DNA from: a virus
Taxonomy: Duplodnaviria; Caudoviricetes
DNA: 61,383 nt
Reading direction: 5' to 3' (one strand)
IMG/VR virus record: IMGVR_UViG_3300036833_000473
Span: 1 to 61,383 of that record
Made by a program: the position numbers and the translations under genes. This document shows positions 2,431 through 51,262 of the stretch, piece by piece; within the stretch, counting starts at the first letter, position 1; the number at the start of each line of letters is the position of its first letter. The notes below the pieces were generated by a model. The model was given only the letters and a program-made list of their open reading frames with translations, had not been told where the DNA came from and did no database searches.

Positions 2431-2442
2431 AAATGTTTGAAT

Positions 2443-2472
2443 ATTATGGCATTTTTATCACTGATAATTCAA
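2443..2472 (-). promoter_or_regulatory. Sigma70-like promoter with palindromic operator
   Basis: Minus strand TTGAAT-18-CATAAT; palindrome TTATCA-c-TGATAA at 2455-2467. Confidence 0.55.
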
Positions 2473-2522
2473 GGTTAGCAGAGAGTGCGGGAGATGGGTG
2501 GCGCGAGGGATATCATAGGGCC

Positions 2523-4049
2523 ATGGCCACAGCCCCGGCTCAGCTCGAGTACTTCGTCAAGAACTTCGACTTCCTGCCGCCGCACGTGCAGGCGGCGGTG
2601 CGCGAGCGCCTGGAGGGCGCAATCATCGGCGACCGGCCGGAAGAGGCGCGTAACAGCTTCCTGCCCTTCGTGCGCCGCGTCTGGCCGGGCTTTATCCACG
2701 GCCGGCACCACGACGTCATGGCGGACGCCTTCGAGCGCATTGAGAGAGGGGAGCTCAAGCGCTGCATCATCAACATGCCGCCGCGCTCGACCAAGAGCAA
2801 GCTGACCAGCGTCATGTTCCCCGCCTGGTACCTGGGGAAACATCCAGAGAAGAAAATATTCGAGGGCAGCCACACGGCATCGCTCGCCATGGACTTCGGC
2901 CGGGATCTGCGCAACCTGGTGCTGACGCCGGAATACCAGAAGGTCTTCCCGGGGCTGCGCCTGGCGCAGGACTCTCGCGCCGCGCACCGCTGGAGCACGC
3001 ACGTGGGCGGCGAGTACTTTGCCGTCGGCAAGACCGGCGGCGCCGCCGGCCGCGGCGGGGACCTGGTGATTCTCGACGACCCGCACAGCGAGCAGGATGT
3101 CCTGAAGAACGCCAAAGCCGAGTTCGAAAAGACCTGGAAGTGGTACCTGGCTGGTCCACGGCAGCGCCTGCAGCCCGGCGCGGCAATTCTGGTGGTCATG
3201 ACCCGCTGGGGCGAGATGGACCTCACCGGCCAGCTGATCAAGCAATACCTGGAAGACGAAAAAGAAGTCGAGCGCTGGGAAGTGATCGAGCTGCCGGCCA
3301 TCCTGCCATCCGGCGACGCGCTGTTCCCGGAATTCTGGAAGATCGAGGAATTGCGCGCCACGCGAGCCATCCTGCCGGTGGCACGCTGGCAGGCCAACTA
3401 CCAGCAGGCGCCGACCAGCGAGGAAGGCGCCATCATCAAGCGCGACTGGTGGCAGAACTGGGGCGAGCCCCTGCCACCCTTGTGCGAGTACCTGGTGATG
3501 AGCTGGGACACGGCCTTCTCTACTGGCGACAGCGCCTGCCGCAGCGCCTGCATCGTATGGGGCGTATTCCGGCAGAAAACCCACGAGGACCCGCCGCGCG
3601 TCAAGACCGGCATCATTCTGCTCGATGCCTGGGCGGCGCGCGTCAACTTCCCCGAGCTCAAAAAGAAAGTCAAAGAGCTCCACGCCCAGTGGAAGCCGGA
3701 CTCGCTCGTGATCGAGAAGAAGGCCTCCGGCGGACCCTTGATCCAGGAGCTCTTCCACGCCGGCCTCTATGCCCAGGAGATGAACCCCTCTCGCTCCCAG
3801 GACAAGGTGGCGCGCACCAACGCGGTGGCCGACCTGTTTGCGAGCGGCATGATCTGGGCCCCGCTCGGCCAGCGGTGGGTGGAGCAGGTACGGGAAGAGA
3901 TGGCGGCGTTCCCGCATGGCGAGTACGACGACCTGCATGATGCCGGGGTGTGGGGCCTGTTGCGGCTGCGGATGGGAAATTTAATTCACCTGGGAAGCGA
4001 TGAGGAGGATGAGGAATGGCAGCCGCGGCCGGCGCGGAAATTCTATTGA
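2523..4049 (+). CDS. terL: Terminase large subunit
   Basis: MPPRSTKS Walker A, LVILDDP Walker B, VMTRW motif, SWDTA / IEKKASG / YDDLHD nuclease motifs; start set at ATG 2523. Confidence 0.95.
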   Translation: MATAPAQLEYFVKNFDFLPPHVQAAVRERLEGAIIGDRPEEARNSFLPFVRRVWPGFIHGRHHDVMADAFERIERGELKRCIINMPPRSTKSKLTSVMFPAWYLGKHPEKKIFEGSHTASLAMDFGRDLRNLVLTPEYQKVFPGLRLAQDSRAAHRWSTHVGGEYFAVGKTGGAAGRGGDLVILDDPHSEQDVLKNAKAEFEKTWKWYLAGPRQRLQPGAAILVVMTRWGEMDLTGQLIKQYLEDEKEVERWEVIELPAILPSGDALFPEFWKIEELRATRAILPVARWQANYQQAPTSEEGAIIKRDWWQNWGEPLPPLCEYLVMSWDTAFSTGDSACRSACIVWGVFRQKTHEDPPRVKTGIILLDAWAARVNFPELKKKVKELHAQWKPDSLVIEKKASGGPLIQELFHAGLYAQEMNPSRSQDKVARTNAVADLFASGMIWAPLGQRWVEQVREEMAAFPHGEYDDLHDAGVWGLLRLRMGNLIHLGSDEEDEEWQPRPARKFY

Positions 4050-4066
4050 AACCTGACCTACGACTT

Positions 4067-4747
4067 CTCTCAGCTACCAGGCCGCCGAGCGGGCATTCCA
4101 GTGTTAAGGCCGGGTCTCAGTTACCGGGCCGCCGGGCAGGCACTGTGACCCAACAGAACAGGGGCGCCAATGGCGGTCTCAGCTTACCACGCCGCTGAGC
4201 AGGCATTACGGCACGAGGCGATTATCATCGGTTTCGTCCCAGCTACCACGCCGCTAGGCAGGCACTGCAGAACAAATGCCGAAACGGTCTCGAGCAACCA
4301 GGCCGCCGGGCTGGCACTGCGATTTTACACCATCTCCCAGCTACCACGCCGCTGAGCAGGCACTGCGACGATCACGCGCAATGAGCGCATAATCACGCAT
4401 CCACTGAGTCCCAGCTACCAAACCGCTGAGCGGGCATTGCGACTCGGACAAGAGAATCGATGCTGTCTCGTCTCAGTTACTAAGCCACCGAGCAGGCAAC
4501 TTCCAAGCCTCCGTTATCCGGGTCTCAGTTTCCAAGCCACCAAGCAGGCATTGCAACCCCGCAAGCGCGGTGCGGCGCGGATCCGGTACGTCATCTCGGT
4601 TACCAAGCCACCGAGCAGGCATTGCAACACGGCGTAACTATCTCAGCCACCAAGCCACTGAGCAGGCGCTGCAACCTCCCGTGAAAGATTGTAAGACGTC
4701 CCTGAAAGGCTGTCTCAGCTATCACGCCGCTGAGCAGGCACTGCAAC
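4067..4747 (-). CRISPR. CRISPR array, 12 degenerate 36-37-bp repeats and 11 spacers (10-38 nt)
   Basis: Repeats start at 4067, 4114, 4176, 4236, 4287, 4334, 4408, 4470, 4522, 4593, 4640, 4712; minus-strand consensus GTTGCAGTGCCTGCTCAGCGGCTTGGTAGCTGAGAC with 3' hairpin; 10 bp from the effector stop codon. Confidence 0.92.
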
Positions 4748-4757
4748 AGTCCCTATT

Positions 4758-6503
4758 CTATACTGTTGATCCCATGCCCTCCTCTCCCTCGCTTGGCGAG
4801 CGGTCCCCGGAACCCGGCAAAATCTCCGGACTATCTGACTGATTCTTCGTCGGTGCCGCCTTGCCGCTCGCCAGCAGATTGATGGCCGCATTATGGTCCT
4901 GATCCCAAAGCTCACCGCACTGACCGCAGCGGTGCAGCACGCTGGCCGCCTGGTCCCAGACCTCGGCGTGCCCGCAGGCGTGGCAGGTGGAAGTGCTGTA
5001 GGCCGCCGGCACGATGCGGACTTCAACTCCCTCGCGCTTACAGGCGTTCACTACCGCGCCGCGGAAGACCGAGGGACTGAGCATCTGGCGGTAGCTGCCA
5101 ATGGTTTTATTCTTTTCATCTTCCTTGGGCTCGGCCACCTGGCGCAGGTCGAACTTCTCGAGGATGACGGTGGCGTATCTAGCCGCCAATTGAGCGGCAA
5201 AGATGCGGTACTGCTCGCGCACGCGCAGGGTCATCTGGTCCTGCTGGTTGCGCCACCAGTTGGTGAGGTGCAAGTATTGCCTGCGCCAGCTGGTGGCGCT
5301 CGCAAATATCTGTGCGTCCTCGTCCAGGCGATGGTCGCCCCACCAGCGGATCAGGCTGGCCAGGCGGTCGCCGCTGCGCCATTGCGCCAGTGTCAGAGTG
5401 CGGCGTTGCCACTCGCTATCGAGCGACTGCCCGCCCAGCCACTTCACCAGCTCGGGCTGAAACTGGTCGCGCGCGCAGTCGGTAATGGAGCGCAGGTCGT
5501 TGACCTTTTTGAATTGCGCGATGTCGCTAGCAGGAACCAGCACCTCGCTATGGCTGCCCGCGTCATCCTGCCAGTAGGCCACACGGCCGCCGGCAGGCAG
5601 GAGGCGCCAGCCGATGTCGATGGCTACGGCAGCGCCGGGGTTCTTGACGGGAACCGGCGGCAGAGCCACGCTCACGTTCAACGCCCATTGCACCTTGCCG
5701 GCCAGCAGGCGCCGCGTGGCGCTGACGCTCTTGATGCGCGCCAGAGGCGGGATGTCGCGATGGTAGACGATGGGCAGGCTTACCCAGAGGGGCGTGCGGC
5801 TCTTCTCGCCGGAGCCGATACGCACGCGCGCGTAGCGCCACTTTTGTCCCGGGGTGGCACTGTCGATCTGGAAGAAGGTGTGCGGCCCCTCCACGCAGGC
5901 TTCCACGCTCGCGCCGTCAATGATCTGCGCCGTAAGCGTGCCCTCGCCGCGGAAAGAGCGGTACTTGAGCTCGCCCAGCTTGCGGCCGGTGTCGGCCGAC
6001 TGGATGACGGCGTTATAAGTCCCCCAGAACAGGCCCAGGCCCTTGGGGCCGGCCGCCCGCCGCGCGCGCTTAACGCGCCGGTTGCGCAGAGCGTTGAGCG
6101 CGTCCAACTGCTCCTGGCGCGCGGCGTGGCGCGCCTTCTGGGTGGCCTTCTGGTGCTCGAGCAGCATGCCGAGAGCGGAGCGTACCCGCGCCAGCTCGTC
6201 GTCGAGGTCGGGAGTCGCGACCTTGGTGCGGGCCTTCTGGCTCCGCGTCTTCTTCTCTTTCCAGAGCGCCTCCTTGCGTTCGCGCAGCTTCTCGATCTCC
6301 ACCTGCGCCTCGTCGCTCATGACGCGCCGGTAACCCGCGGTATGGTAGCGCTCGACGGTGACCAGCACGTTCCACAGGCGGCGCGCCAGGCGCATCTGCA
6401 CCAGCGCCTGGTCTTCGTTTAAGACGGGCGCGATGCGCGCGGGAACCGTGCCGTACTGGTAAACCATGGAACGCGTTTTCTGAGAGTCCTTCTGGTGTTT
6501 CAT
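4758..6503 (-). CDS. cas12m: Type V CRISPR effector, Cas12m (V-M/V-U1)-like, 581 aa
   Basis: LFWGTYNAV, FRGEGTLTAQI, RVRIGS, WVSLPIVYHR, RuvC-I AIDIGWR, RuvC-II ILEK, Zn finger CHAC..CGQC, RuvC-III DQDHNAAINL; adjacent array; RBS GAAAGG. Confidence 0.85.
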   Translation of the reverse strand: MKHQKDSQKTRSMVYQYGTVPARIAPVLNEDQALVQMRLARRLWNVLVTVERYHTAGYRRVMSDEAQVEIEKLRERKEALWKEKKTRSQKARTKVATPDLDDELARVRSALGMLLEHQKATQKARHAARQEQLDALNALRNRRVKRARRAAGPKGLGLFWGTYNAVIQSADTGRKLGELKYRSFRGEGTLTAQIIDGASVEACVEGPHTFFQIDSATPGQKWRYARVRIGSGEKSRTPLWVSLPIVYHRDIPPLARIKSVSATRRLLAGKVQWALNVSVALPPVPVKNPGAAVAIDIGWRLLPAGGRVAYWQDDAGSHSEVLVPASDIAQFKKVNDLRSITDCARDQFQPELVKWLGGQSLDSEWQRRTLTLAQWRSGDRLASLIRWWGDHRLDEDAQIFASATSWRRQYLHLTNWWRNQQDQMTLRVREQYRIFAAQLAARYATVILEKFDLRQVAEPKEDEKNKTIGSYRQMLSPSVFRGAVVNACKREGVEVRIVPAAYSTSTCHACGHAEVWDQAASVLHRCGQCGELWDQDHNAAINLLASGKAAPTKNQSDSPEILPGSGDRSPSEGEEGMGSTV

Positions 6504-6703
6504 ATAGCTAACCTTTCTTTCTTTTTCCCTTCGAGCATATGATGCTCGAGTCCGCCGAACTCGCCGGCCCAGTCGAGCAGGTTGGCGAGCCTCTGGCCGA
6601 CGAACTTGCGCGCGAGCGGCGCGGCCTTGACGATGACTCCATCGCGCGTAACCACCTCGATGGTGAACACGCGGCAGCTGATCCAATGCGTCAGTTCTTT
6701 CAC
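6500..6703 (-). CDS. Small phage hypothetical protein
   Basis: 4-bp overlaps with both neighbours. Confidence 0.7.
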   Translation of the reverse strand: MKELTHWISCRVFTIEVVTRDGVIVKAAPLARKFVGQRLANLLDWAGEFGGLEHHMLEGKKKERLAI

Positions 6704-12789: not shown

Positions 12790-13314
12790 TCAACTCCACT
12801 GCAGCGCGCAGCGCATGAACAGCAATATGAGCAGGGCGCTCCCGGCGGTATTGCCGTAGCCGGTCACGGTCAGCCATGCCTGGAACGGGTTGGGGTCGAT
12901 TTCAAACGGCAGCGTGCCGGTTACCGGGACGATCCCGGTGGTGTGGATTGCACCAAAGCCGTCGGCGGCCAGAATGTCGTTGCGGCCGCTCCCGGTGCCC
13001 AGCTGGAACGACGTGTCCTGCGTGCCGCCGGCGAAGCTCGCGTAGACCATGTTCACCGCCCACAGGAGCACGCTCTCCCTCGGGAACTGCATCGGCAAAG
13101 AAAAGCTGCCCATGGTGTAATCGACGAGCAGCGGGAGAGAGAGCAGCGCCGCCCCGGGCACGTAAGGATCGCTCTGGCGCCCGCAGACGAGGGGGCCAGG
13201 AAAGCGCGTGGCCCGCTGACCGGCGGAGAGAATGATCTGGTTGATGCTGGTCGGCGTGTAGCCGAGCAGAGGTGGGTTACTAGCCAGTTCGGCCGGAATG
13301 GGCGGAGCGCTCAA
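12790..13314 (-). CDS. Putative capsid decoration-like protein
   Basis: TTG start after AAAGGAG; TATAAT at 13343-13348; similar to 51766-52386. Confidence 0.6.
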   Translation of the reverse strand: MSAPPIPAELASNPPLLGYTPTSINQIILSAGQRATRFPGPLVCGRQSDPYVPGAALLSLPLLVDYTMGSFSLPMQFPRESVLLWAVNMVYASFAGGTQDTSFQLGTGSGRNDILAADGFGAIHTTGIVPVTGTLPFEIDPNPFQAWLTVTGYGNTAGSALLILLFMRCALQWS

Positions 13315-13459
13315 GAGTGTCTCCTTTGTCCTTTGCCTAGCGATTATACCGCGGCGGATAAAAATGGGTGCGGAAATGGCTTGCGCCGCCGGGGAGAAAG
13401 GTCGCCAAAGCCCGGCGGCGCAAGAGAATCGAAAAGGGGCTGTCCAAATCTGTCTGAAT

Positions 13460-13651
13460 TCAGTGTAGCGCTTCCGCCATGCACAAATGCCCGCGCTTGG
13501 CGGCGAGCCAGCGCGTATAGCGGCCACAGGGGCAGCGGTCCGGCAGGCGCGGACGGCCGGCGCCGGCACCACTACCGGGCTGCTGACGCGCCTGGCGCGC
13601 CCAACTCTGGCGCTGGCGCTCGGTGGTGCCGGTCCAGCGGGTGCGCTTCAT
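13460..13651 (-). CDS. Hypothetical protein
   Basis: CPCG..HLC; coupled to upstream ORF. Confidence 0.5.
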   Translation of the reverse strand: MKRTRWTGTTERQRQSWARQARQQPGSGAGAGRPRLPDRCPCGRYTRWLAAKRGHLCMAEALH

Positions 13652-13806
13652 AGCGTGTCCTCACAGGCTTCACACCGCACTGGCCGGCCGAGGTAAAGCT
13701 GCCGGGCCTTCAGCTCGGCCGCGGTCACGGTGAACTTGTGCGTGCAGGCGAGCGTAACCAGCCAGTAGGTGCCGAAGCGGTGCATGGCGGTGATGGGGGA
13801 TTTCAT
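13648..13806 (-). CDS. 52-aa Zn-ribbon-like protein (not in ORF track)
   Basis: RBS GGAGG; LACTH...CEAC. Confidence 0.55.
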   Translation of the reverse strand: MKSPITAMHRFGTYWLVTLACTHKFTVTAAELKARQLYLGRPVRCEACEDTL

Positions 13807-13848
13807 GGTTTTACCTCCTAATGCGTGCCGGGGTTGTGAACCGGCCCT

Positions 13849-13873
13849 CCCGCATTACCCCCGCTAATGCGGG
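13849..13873. terminator. Intergenic hairpin
   Basis: CCCGCATTA / TAATGCGGG inverted repeat, no clear U-tract. Confidence 0.35.
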
Positions 13874-13886
13874 GTCACTCTGCGAT

Positions 13887-14075
13887 TTAGTTGTTGAATT
13901 TGATTTGCTGGTCGCGCACCTTATCCGAGTCGCGCAACAACATGAAGTGCTGAATTTCCCCCGCCAGTTGCGCCACCCGGACAGCCCAGAACGCCGTCTG
14001 TGTAGCCTTCAGGCGCTCCATGGCCTTCTCGAGCTCCGCCATCCGCGACTGGATTCTCCTTTCGTTCCACGTCAT
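13887..14075 (-). CDS. Hypothetical protein
   Basis: ATGA overlap. Confidence 0.55.
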   Translation of the reverse strand: MTWNERRIQSRMAELEKAMERLKATQTAFWAVRVAQLAGEIQHFMLLRDSDKVRDQQIKFNN

Positions 14076-14374
14076 TGCGCCACCCCGTCATGCGGCAGGC
14101 GCCGGCCGTCTGCATCATGGCCGATGCCGAACAAGGGGCAGCTGTGGCGCGAGTGCTCGCCGGTCAGGCACTGGTACACGCCCTCGCGCACGAACTGCAT
14201 GGGCTGCCGGCAGCTGGGGCAGGTGGGCGGCGGTTGCCGAACGAACGTGTCACCGGGCCGGCTGCGCGGGGACATGCAGAACGCTGCCGAATTGCCGCTG
14301 GCAGGCCGGTGGTTCGCATGAGCCTCGCCGCACATGGCGCATTCCTCGAACTGATCTTTAGTCTGGTCGGTCAT
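14072..14374 (-). CDS. Cys-rich hypothetical protein
   Basis: RBS AAGGAG; CAMC, CPSC. Confidence 0.55.
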   Translation of the reverse strand: MTDQTKDQFEECAMCGEAHANHRPASGNSAAFCMSPRSRPGDTFVRQPPPTCPSCRQPMQFVREGVYQCLTGEHSRHSCPLFGIGHDADGRRLPHDGVAQ

Positions 14375-19592: not shown

Positions 19593-21367
19593 TTCGGATC
19601 TCCTTCTCTTGTTTTGGTGTATTTGGCAAATGGAAAATTACTTGCCGGCAGCAGCCAGCGGCTTTGTTCCTGGATATTAGGGCCACGAACTCGCTTACGC
19701 GTGGCGCCGATTAAGCGCAGCGCCTGCGTGATGGCGTTGAGGGAGAGTTTCTGGTTGGCGTTGCGTTCCAGCCAGCTCATGAGATGCAGCGGGCTGACGG
19801 CTACCAGTCCTTCGATGAGGGTCGGCAGGTTCCGGTTTTGGAACGGTTGCCCGTCAATTTCGGGGATAAAGGGGTTTTTATTCAGGTATTGGTCCAGCTG
19901 GATGCGCATGTTGCCGGCGGCATGGTTCTCCGGGCCGCCGTCGATCTTAATCAGGGCGTCCAGCATGTTCTGCGCGAGGATTGACCATTCGGCGCGTTTG
20001 AAGGGGCGCAGAAAGTGCTCGAGTTCACTGGTGGCGAGGGCTAGGCGCAGCGCGTCCTGGTTAATCAGCGTGTGCGTGTCTTTCAGCCAGATCGACCTGC
20101 CATCGGCCAGGTCCAGTGTGTAGCTTGGGTTGTCGCCGGTGATTTTGCAGATCCTCAGCAGTGGCGGGATCTCGAGGTCGCGGCCTGCCTGGCCGGCGAG
20201 CCGTGCCTTCGCTATCGCTGGATCGGCCGGTGGCGGCGCGCTCGCTGCGGCCGCCTCGGGAGGTGCTGCGGCATCTGGCGCCGCCTTCTGTGCGGGCGCT
20301 GCCGTGCTGTTACCGGCTTCTTCTTCGGTCTCCTCGATTTCTTTTTCGCTGGCGGCGATGCCCCCGGTGGTGATGGAGCCGCGGGTGGCGCCCTTGGACA
20401 GGGTGAGCAGGTAATAATTCAATTTGGTGCGTGCCGGTCGCCCGTCCTTGCGGCGGTGCTGGACGATTAGGTCGATAATTTGTTGCGGCGCTAATTTCAC
20501 GTCGAAACCGAAGTCGGTGAGCGCCATGTCGTAGCCGGATTGCGTGCTGTCCTTCAGGTCGGTGCGCTGGCGGAGCCAGGTCCGCCGGAAGCGCTCGTTG
20601 CCCTCGAGCCACAATTCAATCTGCTCGGGTGGCAGCGCGGCGTCCAGGTTCACCCTCAGGTCGCCATTATTCTGGAATACTGCTGGTTTAGGTGCGGCGT
20701 CCTCCTGCGGAATCCCCATCTGGTCGAGGTACCACGCAAGCTCGCTCAGGTTATAGCGCGCGTCGCGCTGCTCGAGTACGGTGACGGGCCTAGGGTCTCC
20801 GGGGTCCTTGTAGTTGCGCGTGCCGGGGATGCGCATCACGCGCGCCAAGTCGCTCAGCCGGTCGAGCGCCCAGCCGCGCGCGGCCGCGCGCAATCCCAGC
20901 AGGGTCTGCCAGCGGTGGACGATGCGCGCTGCGGCGGTGCGCTCCTCGGCGCTGCCGAAGCGCGCGATCTCGCGCAAGAGCCACCAGGCGTGACACCCGT
21001 GACCGGTATCCACAATGAGCGACGGTGGAAATTCCGCGGGTATCACGCTGAGCGCTTCGGCGAGCGTGGCGGGCAGCGCCTTCTTCGGATGGATCGGTCC
21101 TGCCAGGTCGAAGTCCTGCCAGACGCCAGCGATCGCGGTGATCTCTTCCGACGGGCATCGGAAGTGTTTCCCGCGGTCGCTGGCGCTCAGGCCGACGCCC
21201 AGGTAGCAGTCCAGGTGCAGCGAGCCGGCGATCACCTGAGCGGCCTGGTTGAGGTTTTGGCGCCAGTGAGACAATTTGAGCGTGTCGCCCTGGTGCGTCC
21301 AAATGAGTACGTAATCGTCTGGGGGCTTGTCTGCCCACAGTAGGTACAAGAATTCGAGGGGCGTCAT
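19589..21367 (-). CDS. RepB-like AEP-family DNA primase
   Basis: WQDFD, VDTGHGCHAWW, DLARVMRIPGTRNYK, SGYD helical domain. Confidence 0.85.
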   Translation of the reverse strand: MTPLEFLYLLWADKPPDDYVLIWTHQGDTLKLSHWRQNLNQAAQVIAGSLHLDCYLGVGLSASDRGKHFRCPSEEITAIAGVWQDFDLAGPIHPKKALPATLAEALSVIPAEFPPSLIVDTGHGCHAWWLLREIARFGSAEERTAAARIVHRWQTLLGLRAAARGWALDRLSDLARVMRIPGTRNYKDPGDPRPVTVLEQRDARYNLSELAWYLDQMGIPQEDAAPKPAVFQNNGDLRVNLDAALPPEQIELWLEGNERFRRTWLRQRTDLKDSTQSGYDMALTDFGFDVKLAPQQIIDLIVQHRRKDGRPARTKLNYYLLTLSKGATRGSITTGGIAASEKEIEETEEEAGNSTAAPAQKAAPDAAAPPEAAAASAPPPADPAIAKARLAGQAGRDLEIPPLLRICKITGDNPSYTLDLADGRSIWLKDTHTLINQDALRLALATSELEHFLRPFKRAEWSILAQNMLDALIKIDGGPENHAAGNMRIQLDQYLNKNPFIPEIDGQPFQNRNLPTLIEGLVAVSPLHLMSWLERNANQKLSLNAITQALRLIGATRKRVRGPNIQEQSRWLLPASNFPFAKYTKTREGDPK

Positions 21368-21933
21368 GTGTCGTTATTCGCTTTCACATAATCAGCGCCC
21401 ACCCGGCGGGTGGGCGGGCGTTTCGGCGGCCGGTGTTCTTTGGTGATCCGCCACCCGTCGATGGGTGCCCCGAACCACATTTCCGCGGTGGCGCGGGCGT
21501 GGCGGGCGTAAGGGGTGGCGAACTTTTTCCGATACTCCTTGGGCTGCCAGATCAGCCACCGTGGACCAGTGCGCCGCAAAATAACCTCGATCGCAGTGGT
21601 ACTTGTGGTCTCCGTGCCTGTGCCGCTCAGCATGGCGGTGACTTCGTCGCACCCATCTAGCGGATCCGGCGGGGGCGGTGTCCAGGCGGGATCGATCAGC
21701 CCCACCGGGAAGGTCGCCATATCGCGGAAGCGTTCCCCGTCCCAGTAGGTAATCGTGGCGTCATCCATCTCCGCGTCGGCCGGGATGTCGGCCAGCTCGA
21801 CCAGTGGGGCGCCGAGCTCCTGGGCAATTTCTTCCCGGCTCTTCCCGGCGAGAGCCATGGGATAGCGGATGGACTCGCGGGCATGTTGTTGAAAACGGCG
21901 TAGCCGTGCCAGGCTGTAGAGGCGTTCGGCCAT
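21364..21933 (-). CDS. Hypothetical protein
   Basis: Operon position; ATGA overlap. Confidence 0.65.
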   Translation of the reverse strand: MAERLYSLARLRRFQQHARESIRYPMALAGKSREEIAQELGAPLVELADIPADAEMDDATITYWDGERFRDMATFPVGLIDPAWTPPPPDPLDGCDEVTAMLSGTGTETTSTTAIEVILRRTGPRWLIWQPKEYRKKFATPYARHARATAEMWFGAPIDGWRITKEHRPPKRPPTRRVGADYVKANNDT

Positions 21934-21954
21934 TGCGTGTACTCTTTCGGTTTC

Positions 21955-21990
21955 GCCTCAGCTATCAGGCCGCTGAGTAGGCATTACTGG
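21955..21990 (-). repeat. Solitary CRISPR-repeat copy A
   Basis: gcctcagctatcaggccgctgagtaggcattactgg; CTCAGC/GCTGAG stem as in the array. Confidence 0.85.
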
Positions 21991-22035
21991 TCTGAGCAGC
22001 TCGAGTGCTTCCCGGGCATTATGCACCACGCCCGT

Positions 22036-22071
22036 GCCTCAGCTATCAGGCCGCTGAGTAGGCATTATCGG
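22036..22071 (-). repeat. Solitary CRISPR-repeat copy B (81 bp from A)
   Basis: gcctcagctatcaggccgctgagtaggcattatcgg; overlaps the VRR-NUC stop codon. Confidence 0.85.
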
Positions 22072-22359
22072 TCGGAGCAGTTCGAGTGCTTCGTGTGCAT
22101 TATGCACTACGCCTGCAATAGCGCCGGCACACCGCCACTCTTTCAGGCGCGCCGTTTGCAGGGGCGTAGGGATGTTTCCGGGCCTCTTGACTTCAAGCTC
22201 AAAATGGCGGCCGGCGACCACTCCGTACAGGTCGGGATCGCCGGCTGTGCCGAGCGCGGTTCCCCAGCGCTTGCGCACCACCAGGCCCGGAATTTGCCTT
22301 AGGGCCTTTACGATCGCGCGCACCAGCGAGCTTTCCCGCGCTGGGGCAGGGCGCGCCAT
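22039..22359 (-). CDS. VRR-NUC domain nuclease
   Basis: ESSL, GDPDL, LEVKRPG..TPLQ. Confidence 0.88.
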   Translation of the reverse strand: MARPAPARESSLVRAIVKALRQIPGLVVRKRWGTALGTAGDPDLYGVVAGRHFELEVKRPGNIPTPLQTARLKEWRCAGAIAGVVHNAHEALELLRPIMPTQRPDS

Positions 22360-22363
22360 AGTT

Positions 22364-23134
22364 TTATCGCGTGGTCTCTTCGGCCGTGTAGTCGGTCGCG
22401 TCGATCATCGCTGGGGTGAGCAGCTCCTTCATCTTTTGGTGGTATGGCTTGAGCGCGCGCACTTCCTTCTCCCCCAGGCGCCGGGAGAGAGAAAGCACCA
22501 GCCGCGCGTAGGCGATGCCGCCCTCGTTGTTGGCCTTCTCGAGCGTGAGCCGGGTGATGGTGGCCCAGTAGGGGATCTGCGCGCTCAATAGCTGCATGTT
22601 GTATTGCGTAAACGCCTTGAGCGAGGTAGGCGGCACGCTCAACAGGTGCGGCAGAATTTCGCCGGGTCGCAGCAGGAGCAGTTGGCGGATGTCTTTGCAG
22701 GCTTGCCCGGCGCCGGGGTTGCCGTTGGGCAATACCGCGGTGCCGAACTGGGCGTAGTGGCAGTCGGCGCAGCGGCCGCCGGGATCGCCGATGCCGACCA
22801 GGCCGTCTTTCGAGGTGCAGTCCGGGGGCTTGTGGCCGCCTGAAAAGTTGCCTCTCCAGAACAGGCGTGCCGAGCGGAAGGCGGTCAGGATGCCTTCGAG
22901 CTCCTTTTCGGGCTGCTCGCCGGCGAGAGTCTGTACCCGGAAGGCCAGGCTGCCGCCGCTTGGCATCTGAATGCGGGGAAAGTTGAGAATTGAGAAATTG
23001 GGGCTGAGGCTTTCATTGAGCAGCTCGATGGTGCTCTGGCTGCTTTCCGGCCGCAGCAGGGCGTAGGGTTCGACCATCTCGGGGTCTTTACCGAGAGTGG
23101 CGAGGTCTTGTGGGGGTTGTGCTTGTTTTGGCAT
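22364..23134 (-). CDS. Putative ssDNA-binding replication protein
   Basis: FPRI, PPDCTS.DG, CADC..QFG, ACK, PPTSLK motifs; acidic tail. Confidence 0.6.
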   Translation of the reverse strand: MPKQAQPPQDLATLGKDPEMVEPYALLRPESSQSTIELLNESLSPNFSILNFPRIQMPSGGSLAFRVQTLAGEQPEKELEGILTAFRSARLFWRGNFSGGHKPPDCTSKDGLVGIGDPGGRCADCHYAQFGTAVLPNGNPGAGQACKDIRQLLLLRPGEILPHLLSVPPTSLKAFTQYNMQLLSAQIPYWATITRLTLEKANNEGGIAYARLVLSLSRRLGEKEVRALKPYHQKMKELLTPAMIDATDYTAEETTR

Positions 23135-23227
23135 AATAGTTGACATTCCTTTGTTGGTTAGTGGGTGTTTGACTAATCGCTGCGTCTCTGGAAGGGACGC
23201 AGCGAAAAATTGGGACTGTCCCGTCCC

Positions 23228-23263
23228 GTCCCGAGTATCAAGCCCTCGGGCAGGCATTTCAAC
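23228..23263 (-). repeat. Solitary CRISPR-repeat copy C
   Basis: gt-cccgag-tatcaagcc-ctcggg-caggca-tttcaac: same 36-nt layout, covaried stem. Confidence 0.85.
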
Positions 23264-23753
23264 GCCATGTTTTTAACACCTGGACGCGGTATGTGGGTTC
23301 GATGCGCACCACCTTGGCGAGCTCCGGCGGCAGCATCGACAAAGTGTTTTCGATGGAGCCCGCGTTTTCCTCGAGCTGGCGCACATAGGTGGTGAGCGAC
23401 TTGGTGGAGTACACCTCTTTGACGTAATGTGCCAGCCCGCATTCTTTGAGCGCTTCGATCACCTGCTCGTCGGTGGCGTGCGCCGCCGGATAGATCCACG
23501 GCTCGCGGTGTGGCGAAAGCGTGTAGCCTTCGATCTTGATCTTCTGGTACCCGCCCTCTCCGAAGTAGCTCAGCACCTGCGGTTCGAGCAGGCGCAGGCG
23601 GGCTTCGACCGCGCGGGTTTCGGCGGCCAGCTCGCGCTTGCGGATGGTCAGGCGGACCAGGTCGGTGAAGGCCTGGTGCTCGGGAGTTTCCTCTACTAGC
23701 TGATGATCATTGGGGAACAGCATTGCCTTTAACCTCGCTAAGGACACTTTCAA
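23259..23753 (-). CDS. Hypothetical replication-module protein
   Basis: Coiled-coil start; operon position. Confidence 0.7.
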   Translation of the reverse strand: MKVSLARLKAMLFPNDHQLVEETPEHQAFTDLVRLTIRKRELAAETRAVEARLRLLEPQVLSYFGEGGYQKIKIEGYTLSPHREPWIYPAAHATDEQVIEALKECGLAHYVKEVYSTKSLTTYVRQLEENAGSIENTLSMLPPELAKVVRIEPTYRVQVLKTWR

Positions 23754-25116
23754 TCAGGTCGGCGCGCCGCTCGAGCGCGCCCTCAATAATCTCGTCAATG
23801 GAGTTTCGGATGGTAAGGTGGTAAAACACAACCGGCCGTTTCTGTGGCGGCCGGTGGATACGAGCTCTGCTTTGCACGTAGTCGGTCAAAGAAAATCCGA
23901 ATGAGTAGTAGATACCGATGCGTGCGCGGGTGAGCGAGATGCCCACGCCGCCGGCCTGGATTTGCACGGCGAGCACGCTGGGCCCGTCGCTTGTACTCGT
24001 CTGCCACAGCTTGAGCTCATCCACGTTCCCACTTAGCTCGGCCGAGGTGCGGCCGGCTTTCTGAGCGGCGCGGTGAATGGCCTTGAGATCGCTTCTGAAG
24101 CGCGCGAAGATGACCACGGCTTCGTCCGGGTCCAGATCTTCAAGCAAGTCTTCCAGCAGATCTTCTTTGCGGGTATCGACCTGGTGCTCGAATCCTTCGT
24201 CGTCTTTGAGAGTGCCGCCGGTGATCTGTTGCAGGCGCAGCAGGCGCACTAGAGCATTGGCCGCGGTGACTTCCTTGCCTTCTTCGATCCAGGCCAGGAG
24301 GTCGCGTTCCATGTCGGCGTAGAGCCTGGCGGCGCGTTCCCCGAGGCCGACAGTAAGTACCTGGTCGAGCTCGGGCGGCAGTTCGAGCACTTCGTCGGTG
24401 ACGCGATAGGCAATCGAATAGAACTTACGGTTGAGCTCTTCGAGCTCTTTATATCCTTTTATCTCTTTATCGTAATAGCCGCCCATGATGGCGTGGCGCA
24501 GCTTGAAGCTGCCAAACGTCGGATCGAGGACACTGGGATCGAGGAAGCGGAACTGGCCCCAGATGTCGAGCGGGTTGTGTGCCATGGGCGTGCCGGTGAG
24601 CGCCAGGCGGTAGTGGGCGCGCAGGCCCAGCTGGCCGAGAAAGCGCGAGTTGCGCGAGGATGCCTCTTTGCATTTGTGGCTTTCGTCTGCGATGACGAGC
24701 GGCCATGCGTTGATGAGTGCCCAGTGGGCGAACGGCTCTGCTCTGCCGGACTCATAGTTGATGCAGATGGCCAGGCGTTTCCGGCGTGCCGTGGCCCAGG
24801 CCAGCGCGTTGCGCGCCCGCTCGGTCTTCTCGGCGATCGTGCCGGAGCGGTCGTCGAGTGCAAGGAATTCATACGGTACGCTGGCGAACTGTGCAAACTG
24901 TGCACGCCAGACTTCCACCACGCGCAGCGGGCAGAGAATCAGAACGGGCGACAGGTTGAAATCGCAGGTAAGATCAATGGCAATTTTTGACTTGCCGCAG
25001 CCCATGGCTAGTGCTAGTAGTGCCCCGTGCCGGCCGCTTTTCCACAGCCTCTCCACAAAGTGATAAGCTGCGACCTGGTGCTTCCAGCTGGCCACTGGCG
25101 TGCGTACGCAATTCAT
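23707..25116 (-). CDS. SNF2-family helicase
   Basis: MGCGKS, ADESH, ALTGTP, GGVGISLT, QSRARIHR. Confidence 0.92.
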   Translation of the reverse strand: MNCVRTPVASWKHQVAAYHFVERLWKSGRHGALLALAMGCGKSKIAIDLTCDFNLSPVLILCPLRVVEVWRAQFAQFASVPYEFLALDDRSGTIAEKTERARNALAWATARRKRLAICINYESGRAEPFAHWALINAWPLVIADESHKCKEASSRNSRFLGQLGLRAHYRLALTGTPMAHNPLDIWGQFRFLDPSVLDPTFGSFKLRHAIMGGYYDKEIKGYKELEELNRKFYSIAYRVTDEVLELPPELDQVLTVGLGERAARLYADMERDLLAWIEEGKEVTAANALVRLLRLQQITGGTLKDDEGFEHQVDTRKEDLLEDLLEDLDPDEAVVIFARFRSDLKAIHRAAQKAGRTSAELSGNVDELKLWQTSTSDGPSVLAVQIQAGGVGISLTRARIGIYYSFGFSLTDYVQSRARIHRPPQKRPVVFYHLTIRNSIDEIIEGALERRADLIESVLSEVKGNAVPQ

Positions 25117-25379
25117 GTCTTGATCCCTGCGCGCTGTGCGGCTATACTCAGCGCCAGTAGCAGTGTGAGGTCTTCGGGGCGGGGTGGCGTAAGCGGGTGA
25201 GAAGTATAATACGTGAGCACTCTGAGTACTTGACCTCCCAGGTCGGGGGCTAAGTACAACTCTATGAGTGCCAGCACTAACGGGTCATGGTAGTAAATCG
25301 CGGATTCGGGTAAGCTTTGTCTCGGCTTCTCGACTGCCGAGCAGGTATCGGTAGAAGATTGTGACTTACACATCGTCAT
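25113..25379 (-). CDS. Hypothetical protein (start uncertain)
   Basis: ATGA overlap with helicase. Confidence 0.45.
   Translation of the reverse strand: MTMCKSQSSTDTCSAVEKPRQSLPESAIYYHDPLVLALIELYLAPDLGGQVLRVLTYYTSHPLTPPRPEDLTLLLALSIAAQRAGIKT
25319..25354 (-). repeat. Solitary CRISPR-repeat copy D
   Basis: gt-ctcggc-ttctcgact-gccgag-caggta. Confidence 0.65.
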
Positions 25380-25449
25380 ACGTTTGTCCTTTATCCGGCT
25401 TAAGCCGGTGTGTGACTGTGACGACTGGTTTATTTCGGATTGTCAATTC

Positions 25450-25487
25450 GTCTCGGCTTGCTATGGCCGCCGAGCGGGCATTGAGGT
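25450..25487 (-). repeat. Solitary CRISPR-repeat copy E
   Basis: gt-ctcggc-ttgctatggcc-gccgag-cgggca-ttg. Confidence 0.78.
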
Positions 25488-25491
25488 TTTT

Positions 25492-25520
25492 ATTCTTGAC
25501 CTTGCAACCCAAATTGTCAA
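25492..25520 (-). promoter_or_regulatory. Candidate promoter of the replication operon
   Basis: TTGACA-17-AAGAAT on the minus strand. Confidence 0.5.
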
Positions 25521-25601
25521 CTTCAAAAATATTGGGTGCGGGAGCGTCTGGCGGAATACACACCGACCAGTTTTTAAACTGCTTGCAAAGGAGTGGTACT
25601 T

Positions 25602-26165
25602 ATGTCCAACAAAGGTTCCAAATCGGGTTCCAAGGCAGCGCCTTCGAAGAAAGTCGCGAAAGTCAAGAGTAATCGCGGGCGCAAATTAGAAAAAGTTCAA
25701 ATCAGTGTGCGGCTGGATAAGCCGTGCATGGATGTTCTTTACCGCCTGGTCAAGACGGAAGGCTATCGCATCACCGATCTTCTCGAGCGCGGCGCCATTT
25801 ACGTGTTGAGAGAAGAGATGGGCGAGTCGCCGGAGATGAAGGCCTTGCGCTTTATGATCGGCGAGATGCCGGCCAAGTCTCAGCGGAGACTGGTGTGCTG
25901 TTTCACATATTTTTGTTTGACTCAGGATTTTTCTATTACCGAGCGTCACGTTGAGGAGATGATGAACGGGATTCTCGATGCCTGGGAGCACGATCCACGT
26001 CACGAGAGATCGCTGCTGGAGTTCTACGCGCAGATGCGGGACAAGCGTAGCAAGGGTGGGGGCGAAGATGGGGATGGGAATGGGGACGGTGGCGGTTCCT
26101 CTGGTTCGCCTTCGGGAATGGCTTCGCCCAGTACCGTGGTTGCTTCTTCTCCAGGCCAAATGTAA
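25602..26165 (+). CDS. Putative transcriptional regulator (RHH-like)
   Basis: RBS AAAGGAG; KVQISVRLDK...ITDLLERG; divergent from replication operon. Confidence 0.6.
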   Translation: MSNKGSKSGSKAAPSKKVAKVKSNRGRKLEKVQISVRLDKPCMDVLYRLVKTEGYRITDLLERGAIYVLREEMGESPEMKALRFMIGEMPAKSQRRLVCCFTYFCLTQDFSITERHVEEMMNGILDAWEHDPRHERSLLEFYAQMRDKRSKGGGEDGDGNGDGGGSSGSPSGMASPSTVVASSPGQM

Positions 26166-50161: not shown

Positions 50162-50373
50162 GAGGTCAGTATAGCCCATTCCCACACATGAAATTCGTAC
50201 GGTATTTTTGAGGTTATTGAAAACAGGAAGGTTAGCGTGTACGAAAATACTAGAAGGTCTTCTTCAAATTGCATTTACAATCTACGATATATCTTTAGTA
50301 TCAATATCTTAGCAGTCACCATAATCACCATTTATCCCATCCATTGTACAACCTTGTACGCCCGGAGGTCCCC
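50162..50373. other. Candidate attP region
   Basis: AT-rich non-coding stretch beside int with four GTAC-core boxes. Confidence 0.45.
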
Positions 50374-50535
50374 ATGGCCCAAATAACCTACGACCCCGAG
50401 TGCGAAAAGTTGGCGGCTTACTTCCTCTCGGGTGAGCCGGCGCACGGCCGCAAGGAACGAATCCAGGACTTGGCCGGTGTGATTCAGCGGGCCATCGAAG
50501 CCTGGATCGAGGAGAAGAGCTTATGGCACCGCTAA
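50374..50535 (+). CDS. Small hypothetical protein
   Basis: RBS GGAGG; YDPEC..LA.YFL...LA..IQ.AIE.W. Confidence 0.65.
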   Translation: MAQITYDPECEKLAAYFLSGEPAHGRKERIQDLAGVIQRAIEAWIEEKSLWHR

Positions 50536-50571
50536 GTCCCAGCTACTGGGCCGCTAAGCAGGCATCACCAA
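50536..50571 (-). repeat. Solitary CRISPR-repeat copy F
   Basis: gt-cccagc-tactgggcc-gctaag-caggca; stem closes with G.U only on the minus strand. Confidence 0.78.
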
Positions 50572-50890
50572 CAGAAAAGGGCGGCCCGCGTCCGGGTCGC
50601 CCGTTTCTGGATCATCACGCGCTGTTTGGTGGCAACCAGCAAGATGATGCTATACCGGACGACGACGACGATCAAGAGGAATTCTGCACCTGCTGGCGTT
50701 ATGGTGATTTCGAGGACGTCTCTGGCTGCCCGGTGCACGACCCGCGGGTGAAGAGGGAGGAGTGATGGACAAGATGCAAATGTACGCCCTGGCCCATCCG
50801 TTAGCCAGGGCTGGTGGGTTGAGTGCTGAACCCTTCCGTATTCTGCGCCTGCCGTGGTCGATCATTCTCACCGTCAACAAGTGACTGACG

Positions 50891-51196: not shown

Positions 51197-51250
51197 TTGA
51201 GGCTTTTGAGGCTTTTGAGGCTTTTGAGGCTTTTGAGGCTTTTGAGGCTT
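51197..51250 (+). repeat. Perfect 9-bp tandem repeat (TTGAGGCTT)x6
   Basis: Directly visible. Confidence 0.95.
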
Positions 51251-51262
51251 TTCGACGCGTGA

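What the first reader, a model, noticed from the sequence alone, without database searches (positions are those of the whole stretch)
21955..25487. Cas12m-type repeats dispersed through the phage's own replication operon
Seen: five copies of the array repeat lie 17-21 kb from the array, at 21955, 22036, 23228, 25319 and 25450; a sixth is at 50536. All keep the 6-bp stem, near-identical spacing and an upstream UGCC-like element, and all are on the minus strand, which is the sense strand of this operon. Most sit at gene junctions: B and C overlap stop codons, A is 21 nt before a start codon, and E is at the predicted transcript 5' end. Known: Cas12m is tracrRNA-free, binds the repeat hairpin and matures its own pre-crRNA. 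Inference: the phage uses its effector (i) as a sequence-specific mRNA processing or translation control factor for replication genes, (ii) to make extra guides timed to replication, or (iii) the units are decoys like solitary-repeat RNA anti-CRISPRs. I know no described system with this layout.
Basis: partly seen in the sequence, partly recalled or inferred. Interest (0 to 1): 0.93.

Follow-up and report, generated by a model that had tools for sequence, protein, structure and literature searches.

The report
Lone Cas12m repeats inside phage operon
A temperate soil phage that carries its own DNA-binding CRISPR protein (Cas12m) also has five intact single copies of that protein's RNA handle embedded in its early replication operon and next to its integrase, so its own messages should be bound or cut by Cas12m, for a purpose still untested.

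Summary
A covariance model built from the 12 array repeats finds F, C, A, B and E at 37.3 to 26.4 bits (E 1.8e-6 to 4e-4). D scores 11.9 bits, which is background.

All five copies keep the stem, the pseudoknot triplets and the flanking G...AC (A...GC in A and B) that define Cas12m crRNA handles. Stem changes are compensatory. A and B, an 81-nt tandem duplicate, differ at 10 sites, none of them in the 31-nt core.

The effector is a true Cas12m homologue (E 5.5e-83 to a solved Cas12m). Two related phages without cas12m lack the repeats at the same junctions.

None of the 18 guides matches the phage itself, those relatives, or (four tested) IMG/VR.

What the copies are is well supported: solitary repeat units cognate to the phage's own effector. 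What they do is not resolved. My best guess (0.35) is Cas12m binding or cutting of the early operon RNA. Guides against sister phages, neutral spread and decoys remain open.

No paper found in my searches describes this layout. This scan has noted similar cases in other Cas12m phages.

The parts
4758..6686 (-). cas12m gene. The longest ORF is 642 aa. The database version P0001 is 581 aa, so the start is probably near 6503.
   Evidence: phmmer E 5.5e-83 to PDB 23vw_A 'CRISPR-associated DNA-binding protein Cas12m', and E 4e-21 to Cas12m2 8hio. Pfam Cas12f1-like TNB, E 5.8e-13. D296, E449 and D534/D536 are invariant and H248/R249 are conserved in 36 homologues (P0001 numbering).
4067..4748 (-). 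Degenerate CRISPR array: 12 repeats of 37-38 nt directly downstream of cas12m, with spacers of 9 to 37 nt.
21955..21991 (-). Solitary repeat A. It ends 21 nt before the ATG of the 189-aa gene 21364-21933.
   Evidence: 33.4 bits, E 1.2e-5..
22036..22072 (-). Solitary repeat B. Its 3' arm contains the stop codon of the VRR-NUC gene 22039-22359.
   Evidence: 32.1 bits, E 2.4e-5; phrog_93 endonuclease..
21955..22116 (-). 81-nt tandem duplication (2 units). Each unit is the last codons of the VRR-NUC gene plus a repeat, so B-spacer-A forms a two-repeat mini-array made in place.
   Evidence: period 81, 2.0 copies, 89% matches; 10 differences, none in the 31-nt repeat core, P 0.0055.
23228..23264 (-). 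Solitary repeat C. It overlaps the stop codon of the DUF7307 gene (23259-23723). It is followed by a small hairpin with a T-run and then a 9-bp hairpin, before the phrog_23155 gene (22364-23134).
   Evidence: 36.7 bits, E 2.3e-6.. Its stem CCCGAG/CTCGGG differs from the array majority at four pairs, all compensated.
25319..25355 (-). Copy D: doubtful. It is a hairpin with the same stem as E but lacks the TGCC and GGC elements. It lies inside codons 9-21 of an 88-aa ORF (25113-25379).
   Evidence: 11.9 bits, E 0.56 (background); 2 of 3 pseudoknot pairs..
25450..25488 (-). Solitary repeat E (11-nt loop), at the predicted 5' end of the leftward early operon.
   Evidence: 26.4 bits, E 4e-4. for the promoter-like site.
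25492..25520 (-). Sigma-70-like promoter TTGACA-17-AAGAAT, in the divergent region between the leftward operon and the rightward gene 25593-26165.
   Evidence: 10 of 12 matches. This is a consensus match only.
50536..50572 (-). Solitary repeat F, 350 nt upstream of the integrase gene (48953-50185, minus). It lies directly after a GC-rich hairpin with TTTTCT, and it abuts the stop codon of a plus-strand 63-aa ORF (50344-50535).
   Evidence: 37.3 bits, E 1.8e-6.. Its two G-U pairs fit only minus-strand RNA.
21364..25379 (-). Head of the leftward early/replication operon that holds A-E. Gene order: 88-aa ORF, SNF2 helicase, DUF7307, phrog_23155, VRR-NUC, 189-aa ORF. The same strand continues through primase-polymerase and UvrD helicase to cas12m and the array.

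Best explanation
A, B, C, E and F are solitary repeat units: single, intact copies of the crRNA handle of the phage's own Cas12m. They are kept foldable as RNA on the sense strand.

Proposed mechanism:
1. They are transcribed as part of the phage's messages. E is at the 5' end of the early operon. C and B/A are at cistron boundaries within the first 3.5 kb. F is upstream of the integrase gene.
2. Cas12m is encoded at the far end of the same leftward gene block. It binds each handle.
3. If it trims as its characterised relatives do, it cuts a few bases into the repeat and about 17-18 nt past it.
4. That would sever the polycistronic RNA at these junctions. At C, B and possibly F it would strip the upstream cistron of its stop codon. 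At A it would occupy the leader of the downstream gene. Each cut would release a roughly 50-nt orphan crRNA.

I take control of the early/replication operon RNA by Cas12m binding or cutting as the most likely selected effect.

Shown here: identity, structure, conservation and placement of the units, and the Cas12m homology. Inferred: transcription, binding, cutting and any regulatory outcome.
For: Identity of the units:
- Covariance-model scores are far above background for five copies.
- The helix is paired in 96.3% of cells. Four of 6 pairs carry changes on both sides, and 0 of 500 shuffles reach this.
- Each of the five keeps the upstream GCC and the loop GGC. That pairing covaries across 28 of 34 distinct array repeats from other Cas12m loci: GCC/GGC, GGC/GCC, ACC/GGT, GGT/ACC, GCT/AGC, CCC/GGG, CGC/GCG.
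- The G before the stem and the AC after it match G(-23):A(-2) and C(-1), which His269/Arg270 read in Cas12m2 (PMC10442227, section 7 read). The H-R pair is conserved in this subfamily.

Selection:
- The A and B units differ at 10 of 81 positions, with 0 differences in the 31-nt core (P 0.0055).
- The G-U pairs in F fit only minus-strand RNA.

Placement:
- E, C and B/A lie within 3.5 kb (rough chance about 0.013).
- Three of four independent units overlap an upstream stop codon, though the ORF at F is unverified.
- E follows a promoter-like site.

Link to the effector: relatives G002 and G003 (major capsid protein 85-87% identical, same SNF2-DUF7307-phrog_23155 order) have neither cas12m nor the repeats.

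RNase activity of relatives:
- MsCas12m cuts pre-crRNA within the repeat (PMC11013384, passages read).
- PmCas12m cuts after nt 2-3 of the repeat and at guide position 17-18 (bioRxiv 10.64898/2026.03.26.714355, passages read).

Other points:
- A Twister-P5 self-cleaving ribozyme sits between two small predicted ORFs in the same operon, so intercistronic RNA cleavage already occurs in this transcript.
- The first 17 nt after C form a hairpin, which makes a poor guide.
Against: - There are no RNA data. The only public run that holds the stretch is the probable source sample, kept as DNA contigs.
- Intergenic, sense-strand placement is also what survivorship alone would leave in a compact phage genome.
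- The 5'-most 8 nt, where relatives make the 5' cut, are poorly kept in A and B (3 and 2 of 8 against the array majority).
- A and B carry A...GC where the family has G...AC, which could weaken binding.
- No close relative carrying cas12m was found, so positional conservation could not be tested.
- I know of no natural precedent for a Cas effector regulating an operon in this way (my own recall, plus searches).
- In-context folding did not single out the hairpins. Array repeats scored no better.
Confidence: 0.35

Rival explanations
1. The units are orphan guide cassettes against sister phages. Each unit turns the adjoining native phage sequence into a Cas12m guide. The carrier is safe because its own copy has the repeat where a PAM would be. 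A related phage that shares the module but lacks the insertion would be bound and silenced in its early/replication operon, giving superinfection exclusion.
For: - The handles are complete up to the guide junction.
- None of the 18 guides matches elsewhere in the phage, so they are harmless to the carrier.
- Cas12m proteins silence by DNA binding (PMC11013384 and PMC10442227, passages read).
- The guide of E covers the early leader just past the promoter-like site.
- B-spacer-A is a mini-array whose spacer is a copy of the end of the neighbouring gene.
- In L041 a repeat plus 16 nt was inserted in frame into cas12m itself.
- The same idea was noted for other phages in this scan. That is a lead, not support.
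Against: - No target was found. There were 0 hits in IMG/VR for the guides of E and A.
- In G002 and G003 nothing clearly exceeded shuffles among 36 tests. The best was 15 of 18 against a shuffle maximum of 14.
- No DNA relative exists among GenBank phages.
- The bases just upstream of the units are not T- or C-rich PAM-like (GGC, AGA, CGA, AAA; only F gives TTC with a one-base shift). The PAM of this effector is unknown.
- The guide of C is a self-pairing hairpin.
- A and B deviate at the two handle positions next to the guide.
Confidence: 0.25
2. The units are by-products of repeat spread with little or no function. Repeat units get copied to new sites by duplication, template switching or recombination. 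Only copies in tolerated places (between genes, on the sense strand) survive, and they persist for a while.
For: - A/B is a plain tandem duplication.
- D looks like a decaying duplicate of E inside an ORF.
- L041 shows that such units can land even in a coding region.
- Other cas12m-bearing phages have a few stray copies: G001 has 3 and Rctr197k has 1.
- The 2023 survey judged that many SRUs, notably in type II loci, arise from spurious repeat duplication (bioRxiv 10.1101/2023.03.03.530964, discussion passage read).
Against: - The core is conserved while the flanks diverged (0 of 31 against 10 of 50 positions, P 0.0055).
- Four compensated stem pairs in C, and intact pseudoknot triplets in all five units.
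- Clustering in the head of one operon.
Confidence: 0.2
3. The units are decoys (RNA anti-CRISPR-like). Expressed early, they soak up a Cas12m made by the host or a resident element that uses a similar repeat, loading it with harmless guides.
For: - Solitary repeat units of viruses act as RNA anti-CRISPRs and often sit just downstream of a promoter (PMC10651486, abstract and passages read).
- E fits that layout.
- All units lie in early-expressed or regulatory regions.
Against: - The phage makes its own cognate effector, which the decoys would disarm as well.
- Four of the five units lie inside operons rather than forming separate small-RNA genes.
- The host is unknown, and no close cas12m was found in 27 GTDB genome loci (35% identity or less).
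- Neighbouring acr genes were not examined.
Confidence: 0.1

Closest known systems
Solitary repeat units (SRUs) of viruses, and RNA anti-CRISPRs (Racrs). Source: Camara-Wilpert et al. 2023, PMC10651486, abstract and passages read. It cites Faure et al. 2019, which I did not read.
   Same: - Single copies of a CRISPR repeat in a viral genome, outside any array.
- One of them (E) lies directly downstream of a promoter-like site.
- They keep the repeat's fold.
   Different: - Here the phage encodes the cognate effector and array itself.
- There are five units, and most are embedded in sense orientation at cistron boundaries of an operon.
- They are only about 69-75% identical to the array majority. 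That is below the 90% identity cut-off of SRUFinder, so such units would not be in that catalogue.
- An anti-CRISPR role is untested.
Type V-M CRISPR-Cas12m systems: MmCas12m2, GoCas12m, MsCas12m, PmCas12m (PMC10442227, PMC11013384, bioRxiv 10.64898/2026.03.26.714355)
   Same: - The effector is homologous.
- Repeat of 36-37 nt with a 6-bp stem, a pseudoknot triplet, a G:A pair and C(-1).
- No adaptation-gene family appeared among the PHROG hits in the window.
- The array lies next to the effector on the same strand.
   Different: - The system is phage-borne.
- The array is degenerate, with spacers of 9-37 nt, where most relatives have regular units of 71-74 nt.
- Extra handles are scattered through the genome.
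- The RuvC-like positions are D, E, D here. The characterised proteins have altered triads. Activity is unknown.
MvCas12m of myxophage MV-1 (bioRxiv 10.64898/2026.09.14.751636, passages read)
   Same: A Cas12m with an adjacent array and no adaptation genes in a complete phage genome. No protospacer was found for its spacers.
   Different: - It is a different protein: 610 aa with D305/E463/D555, against D296/E449/D534-536 in 581 aa here.
- The passages I read do not mention solitary repeats.
cr-like regulatory RNAs and mini-arrays: scaRNA, tracr-L, CreA/CreR, crlRNA (bioRxiv 10.1101/2023.03.03.530964, passages read; 10.1101/2024.12.27.630466, abstract in a search listing)
   Same: Stand-alone repeats that load the effector with a guide used for regulation rather than immunity.
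   Different: Those guides have a partly matching target, usually a promoter in the same genome. Here no guide has any match in the genome beyond shuffles.

Membership tests
Type V-M CRISPR-Cas12m (effector and array) | Effector homologous to characterised Cas12m, with a C-terminal zinc-ribbon TNB domain | tested here: met
   E 5.5e-83 to 23vw_A Cas12m and 4e-21 to Cas12m2. PF07282, E 5.8e-13. C507, C510, C526 and C529 are nearly invariant.
Type V-M CRISPR-Cas12m (effector and array) | Adjacent array of about 36-nt repeats on the effector's strand, with the hairpin at the 3' end of the repeat | tested here: met
   12 repeats between 4748 and 4067, directly after the gene. Spacing is irregular (spacers of 9-37 nt).
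Type V-M CRISPR-Cas12m (effector and array) | crRNA handle architecture: 6-bp stem, upstream triplet paired to the loop, purine pair G:A, and C(-1) | tested here: met
   compared with PMC10442227 section 7 and the PmCas12m preprint.
Type V-M CRISPR-Cas12m (effector and array) | No adaptation genes and no tracrRNA | tested here: inconclusive
   No Cas1/2/4-like family appeared among the PHROG hits of 75 ORFs. PHROGs is not designed for cas genes. tracrRNA was not searched for.
Type V-M CRISPR-Cas12m (effector and array) | PAM-dependent DNA binding without cleavage, and self-processing of pre-crRNA | not testable with these tools
   This needs biochemistry. The RuvC-like D296/E449/D534-536 are intact, so cleavage cannot be excluded.
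Viral solitary repeat units (SRUs) | Sequence matches a CRISPR repeat | tested here: met
   five units at E 1.8e-6 to 4e-4 against the phage's own repeat model. Identity to the array majority is only 25-27 of 36, below SRUFinder's 90% rule (PMC10651486 methods).
Viral solitary repeat units (SRUs) | Solitary: no other repeat within about 100 bp | tested here: inconclusive
   Met for C and F. A and B are 81 nt apart, which makes them a mini-array by that rule. E has the doubtful copy D 131 nt away.
Viral solitary repeat units (SRUs) | Not associated with cas genes in the same element (as described in PMC10651486) | tested here: not met
   cas12m and its array lie in the same genome, 17-46 kb away.
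RNA anti-CRISPR (Racr) | Expressed as a small RNA that inhibits a host CRISPR-Cas system of matching type | not testable with these tools
   The host is unknown. No RNA holder is listed. Only distant cas12m genes (35% identity or less) were found in GTDB genomes.
cr-like regulatory RNA (scaRNA, CreA, CreR, crlRNA) | The flanking guide is partly complementary to a target in the same genome | tested here: not met
   for guides of 16, 20 and 24 nt, the best matches equal those of shuffled guides for all 18 units. The only exception is the trivial match of B's guide to its tandem copy.

The most novel reading that the evidence does not exclude
These units are products of a Cas1/Cas2-free way of making guides. 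Instead of inserting a spacer next to a repeat, the system inserts or duplicates a repeat next to an existing sequence, so that any locus of the element can become a guide cassette and is at the same time marked as self.

Three observations would fit this:
- The B-spacer-A mini-array, made in place from the end of the VRR-NUC gene.
- The 62-nt repeat-plus-16-nt unit that replaced 17 nt in frame inside cas12m of L041.
- The stray copies in other cas12m-bearing phages.
Probability: 0.12. Interest if true: 0.85.

Novelty: new variant of a known kind. Interest (0 to 1): 0.62.

Why it matters
Solitary CRISPR repeats in viruses are so far understood as decoys against host immunity. Here the virus owns the matching effector and places the handles inside its own early operon.

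If Cas12m binds or cuts these messages, a CRISPR effector is being used as a sequence-specific RNA-level regulator of phage genes. Alternatively, it could be a way to turn native phage sequence into guides against close relatives without any adaptation machinery. Either would widen what CRISPR parts are known to do in mobile elements.

It would also give a compact natural pair (a 581-aa protein and a 31-nt handle) for operon punctuation.

The units are too diverged from the array repeat to be caught by the published SRU search rule, so such cases may be under-counted.

Tried and rejected
- **Loose structural motif scan** (GCC, gap, 6-bp stem, GGC loop). It gave over 100 hits in the window against a mean of 68.7 in Markov controls. 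It was too permissive in 63% GC DNA and I dropped it.
- **In-context folding** with 60-nt flanks. Stem probabilities were 0.02 (A), 0.80 (B), 0.62 (C), 0.98 (D), 0.99 (E) and 0.04 (F). Three array repeats gave 0.00-0.09, so the measure says nothing.
- **Self-targets of guides**. None beyond shuffles.
- **Targets in relatives G002 and G003**. Three of 36 tests exceeded 10 shuffles by one match, which is not meaningful.
- **Exact 20-22-nt searches of IMG/VR** for the spacers of R1 and R6 and the guides of E and A. There were 0 hits each. Exact matching is strict, and the guides of B, C and F and the other spacers were not searched.
- **GenBank phages.** No DNA relative of 21300-25600. Only two distant protein hits to the effector.
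- **Public runs.** No RNA holder is listed. The single DNA holder may be the source sample. Its contigs break at the A/B duplication and show no variant with or without a unit.
- **GTDB genomes.** 27 loci, all 35% identity or less over long matches, so there is no host clue.
- **L058.** It first looked like a second case of dispersed units. It is better read as a roughly 9-kb degenerate array interrupted by an IS transposase.
- **Leader alignment with G003 and G002** to locate the insertion point of E. The sequences are too diverged, and my G002 coordinates were a guess.
- **Pfam on 15 small or neighbouring ORFs.** No regulator domains.
- **Not run.** I did not fold the effector or run a complex prediction, because no claim here rests on them.

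Full report
**What the window is**

The window is one whole IMG/VR virus record of 61,383 bases, with a CheckV completeness estimate of 95%. It has a 126-nt direct repeat at its ends.

PHROG and Pfam scans give the following map:
- Large terminase at 2433-4049 (+).
- A long leftward gene block from 25379 down to 4758.
- A rightward structural block from 25593 to about 43374.
- Portal, ParB and a tyrosine integrase (48953-50185, minus). The integrase makes the phage probably temperate.

The leftward block begins with an 88-aa ORF, followed by an SNF2 helicase, a DUF7307 protein, a phrog_23155 protein, a VRR-NUC endonuclease, a 189-aa ORF, a primase-polymerase and a UvrD-type helicase. It ends with a 642-aa ORF (581 aa in the protein database) and then the repeat array.

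**The effector and the array**

The ORF at 4758-6686 (minus) matches a solved 'CRISPR-associated DNA-binding protein Cas12m' at E 5.5e-83 and Cas12m2 at E 4e-21. It carries the Cas12f1-like TNB zinc ribbon.

In an alignment of 36 homologues, D296, E449 and D534/D536 are invariant. The H248-R249 pair is conserved. That pair aligns with His269-Arg270 of Cas12m2.

Directly downstream on the same strand lie 12 repeats of 37-38 nt. They are unusually diverged, with 79% mean column identity. The spacers are 9, 10, 10, 15, 15, 22, 25, 25, 34, 35 and 37 nt long.

Most of the 80 related metagenome loci have regular units of 71-74 nt. The array in the window is therefore a worn or remodelled one.

**Checking the observation**

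A covariance model of the 12 array repeats, with the 6-bp helix, was run over both strands of the window without filters. Results:
- The 12 array repeats score 39.7-53.2 bits.
- F scores 37.3, C 36.7, A 33.4, B 32.1 and E 26.4 bits, with E-values from 1.8e-6 to 4e-4.
- D scores 11.9 bits (E 0.56). The next, unrelated hit scores 11.1.

Five of the six reported copies are therefore real and D is not supported. D has the stem of E and shares its 3' flank. It lacks the two elements described below and lies inside the variable N-terminal part of a small gene. The C-terminal half of that gene is weakly similar to the ORF in the same position in a relative. D may be a decayed duplicate of E.

A and B are a single event, an 81-nt tandem duplication. 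There are thus four independent units.

- The stop codon of the VRR-NUC gene lies in B.
- The stop codon of the DUF7307 gene lies at positions 4-6 of C.
- A ends 21 nt before a start codon.
- E starts 4 nt after a TTGACA-17-AAGAAT site.

F sits 350 nt upstream of the integrase gene, directly after a GC-rich hairpin followed by TTTTCT. It abuts the stop codon of a small plus-strand ORF.

**Are the units real Cas12m handles?**

In Cas12m2 the handle has three read features (PMC10442227, section 7): a 6-bp helix between C(-22..-17) and G(-8..-3), a G(-23):A(-2) purine pair, and a base-specifically read C(-1). The PmCas12m preprint describes a second short helix that involves loop nucleotides.

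On the 18-sequence alignment the helix is paired in 96.3% of cells. Four of six pairs carry changes on both sides, and no shuffle of 500 reaches the observed values. C alone differs from the array majority at four pairs, all compensated.

Across 34 distinct array repeats from other Cas12m loci, 28 show full complementarity between the triplet two bases upstream of the stem and the first three loop bases. Seven covarying pair types occur. A, B, C, E and F all have it; D has two of three pairs.

The G before the stem and the AC after it are kept in C, E and F. A and B have A...GC instead, a double departure whose effect I cannot judge.

The two G-U pairs in F would be A-C mismatches on the other strand. 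The fold is therefore kept in minus-strand RNA.

Since A and B duplicated, their 81-nt units have accumulated 10 differences, none in the 31-nt core (P 0.0055). That argues for purifying selection on the handle.

**Link to the effector**

Two phages of the same family, G002 and G003, share with the window a major capsid protein 85-87% identical, an SNF2 helicase 56-57% identical, and the same SNF2-DUF7307-phrog_23155 gene order.
- Neither encodes Cas12m. There were 0 matches in 2 records. One record is complete and the other is 76% complete.
- Neither has a repeat hit above background.
- In G003 the DUF7307 and phrog_23155 genes overlap, where the window has about 120 nt holding C and two more hairpins.

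The units go with the effector.

**Other Cas12m elements**

I used per-locus profiles of the local repeat and whole-genome scans:
- The 113-kb phage G001 has a 40-repeat array, two copies 1.6 kb away from it, and one strong solitary copy on the other strand.
- GenBank phage Rctr197k has one solitary copy next to a tRNA-Met gene.
- L106, L087 and L077 have one or two copies within 10 kb.
- In L041 a repeat plus 16 further bases replaced 17 nt inside cas12m itself. The reading frame is kept and 15 residues are added to a loop, by comparison with L040.

Repeat units of this family therefore do reach new sites. The window has the densest set I saw.

**What the units might do**

Their transcripts should be bound by Cas12m. 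If the enzyme trims as MsCas12m and PmCas12m do, the RNA is cut a few bases into the repeat and 17-18 nt after it (PMC11013384; bioRxiv 10.64898/2026.03.26.714355). Three consequences follow whatever the selected purpose: the operon RNA is severed at these points, orphan crRNAs with phage-derived guides are made, and some effector is occupied.

I could not separate the possible purposes.
- No guide matches the phage elsewhere. This excludes a cr-like self-regulator that works through DNA binding.
- No guide matches G002 or G003. Four exact searches of IMG/VR found nothing. The sister-phage reading therefore has no target yet.
- The bases upstream of the units do not resemble the T- or C-rich PAMs known in the family. 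The guide of C is a hairpin.

Several points tilt me slightly towards an RNA-level role in the operon, at 0.35:
- The clustering of E, C and B/A in the first 3.5 kb of the early operon.
- The stop codons lying inside the units.
- E sitting at the transcript start.
- A Twister-P5 self-cleaving ribozyme at 13828-13884 between two small ORFs of the same leftward block.

I put guides against relatives at 0.25, neutral spread at 0.20 and decoys at 0.10.

**Comparison with what is known**

Viral solitary repeat units and their anti-CRISPR role are established (PMC10651486). Stand-alone repeats with regulatory guides are known in cellular CRISPR loci (bioRxiv 10.1101/2023.03.03.530964). A phage-borne Cas12m was reported in September 2026 (bioRxiv 10.64898/2026.09.14.751636), without mention of solitary repeats in the passages I read.

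My three literature searches found no description of a phage that carries Cas12m together with cognate handles embedded in its own operons. Supplements of the bioRxiv papers were not available to me and might list such units.

This scan has logged comparable cases in other Cas12m phages. Those are unchecked notes, and I took from them the sister-phage idea.

I file the finding as a new variant of a known kind.

Noticed in passing
window 13828-13884 (-): Rfam Twister-P5 self-cleaving ribozyme: 57.2 bits against a gathering score of 37.6, E 2.9e-9. It lies between two small predicted ORFs (13887-14075 and 13648-13806, heuristic calls) in the same leftward block as the solitary repeats.
   Followed up: partly
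window 4067-4748 (-): The array itself is odd. The 12 repeats are diverged but carry compensated stems. Spacers are as short as 9-10 nt, too short for the roughly 17-nt guide that Cas12m relatives use. Most related loci have regular units of 71-74 nt.
   Followed up: partly
G001:C1:106140-108516 (L084 4415-6754): A 113-kb phage has a 40-repeat Cas12m array. Unit spacing is 69-77 nt next to cas12m and falls to mostly 51-56 nt further away. The distal spacers are therefore about 15-19 nt, close to the working guide length.
   Followed up: no
L041 1169-1230: A repeat with a doubled 3' arm, plus 16 further bases, replaces 17 nt inside the cas12m coding region. The frame is kept and 15 residues are added, by comparison with L040. 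Two more copies lie just upstream of the gene.
   Followed up: partly
L087 9540-9576 (+) and 5116-5152 (-): Two solitary copies have identical cores. They differ from the array repeat of that locus by a swap of the pseudoknot triplets, from GGC/GCC to GCC/GGC. One of them lies about 200 nt upstream of cas12m.
   Followed up: no
window 4236-4272 spacer and 21934-21954: The spacer after array repeat R9 and the stretch after unit A both start with the same 8 bases and then diverge. My rough chance estimate for this among 60 comparisons is about 1e-3. It is unexplained.
   Followed up: no
window 51197-51252: Six perfect tandem copies of a 9-nt unit (TTGAGGCTT) lie in the regulatory region near the integrase gene. 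They could be iterons or operator sites.
   Followed up: no
window 54850-55730: A 33-nt periodic, glutamine- and asparagine-rich repeat lies inside the 788-aa ORF 53939-56305.
   Followed up: no
KX853510.1 175442-175473 (-): In GenBank phage Rctr197k the Cas12m homologue is annotated only as 'similar to transposase'. A solitary copy of its repeat lies 24 nt upstream of a tRNA-Met gene in the phage's tRNA cluster.
   Followed up: partly
L058 11900-20850: About 9 kb downstream of a cas12m gene is filled with degenerate repeat hairpins at irregular spacing. An IS transposase gene (12994-14256, minus) interrupts them.
   Followed up: partly
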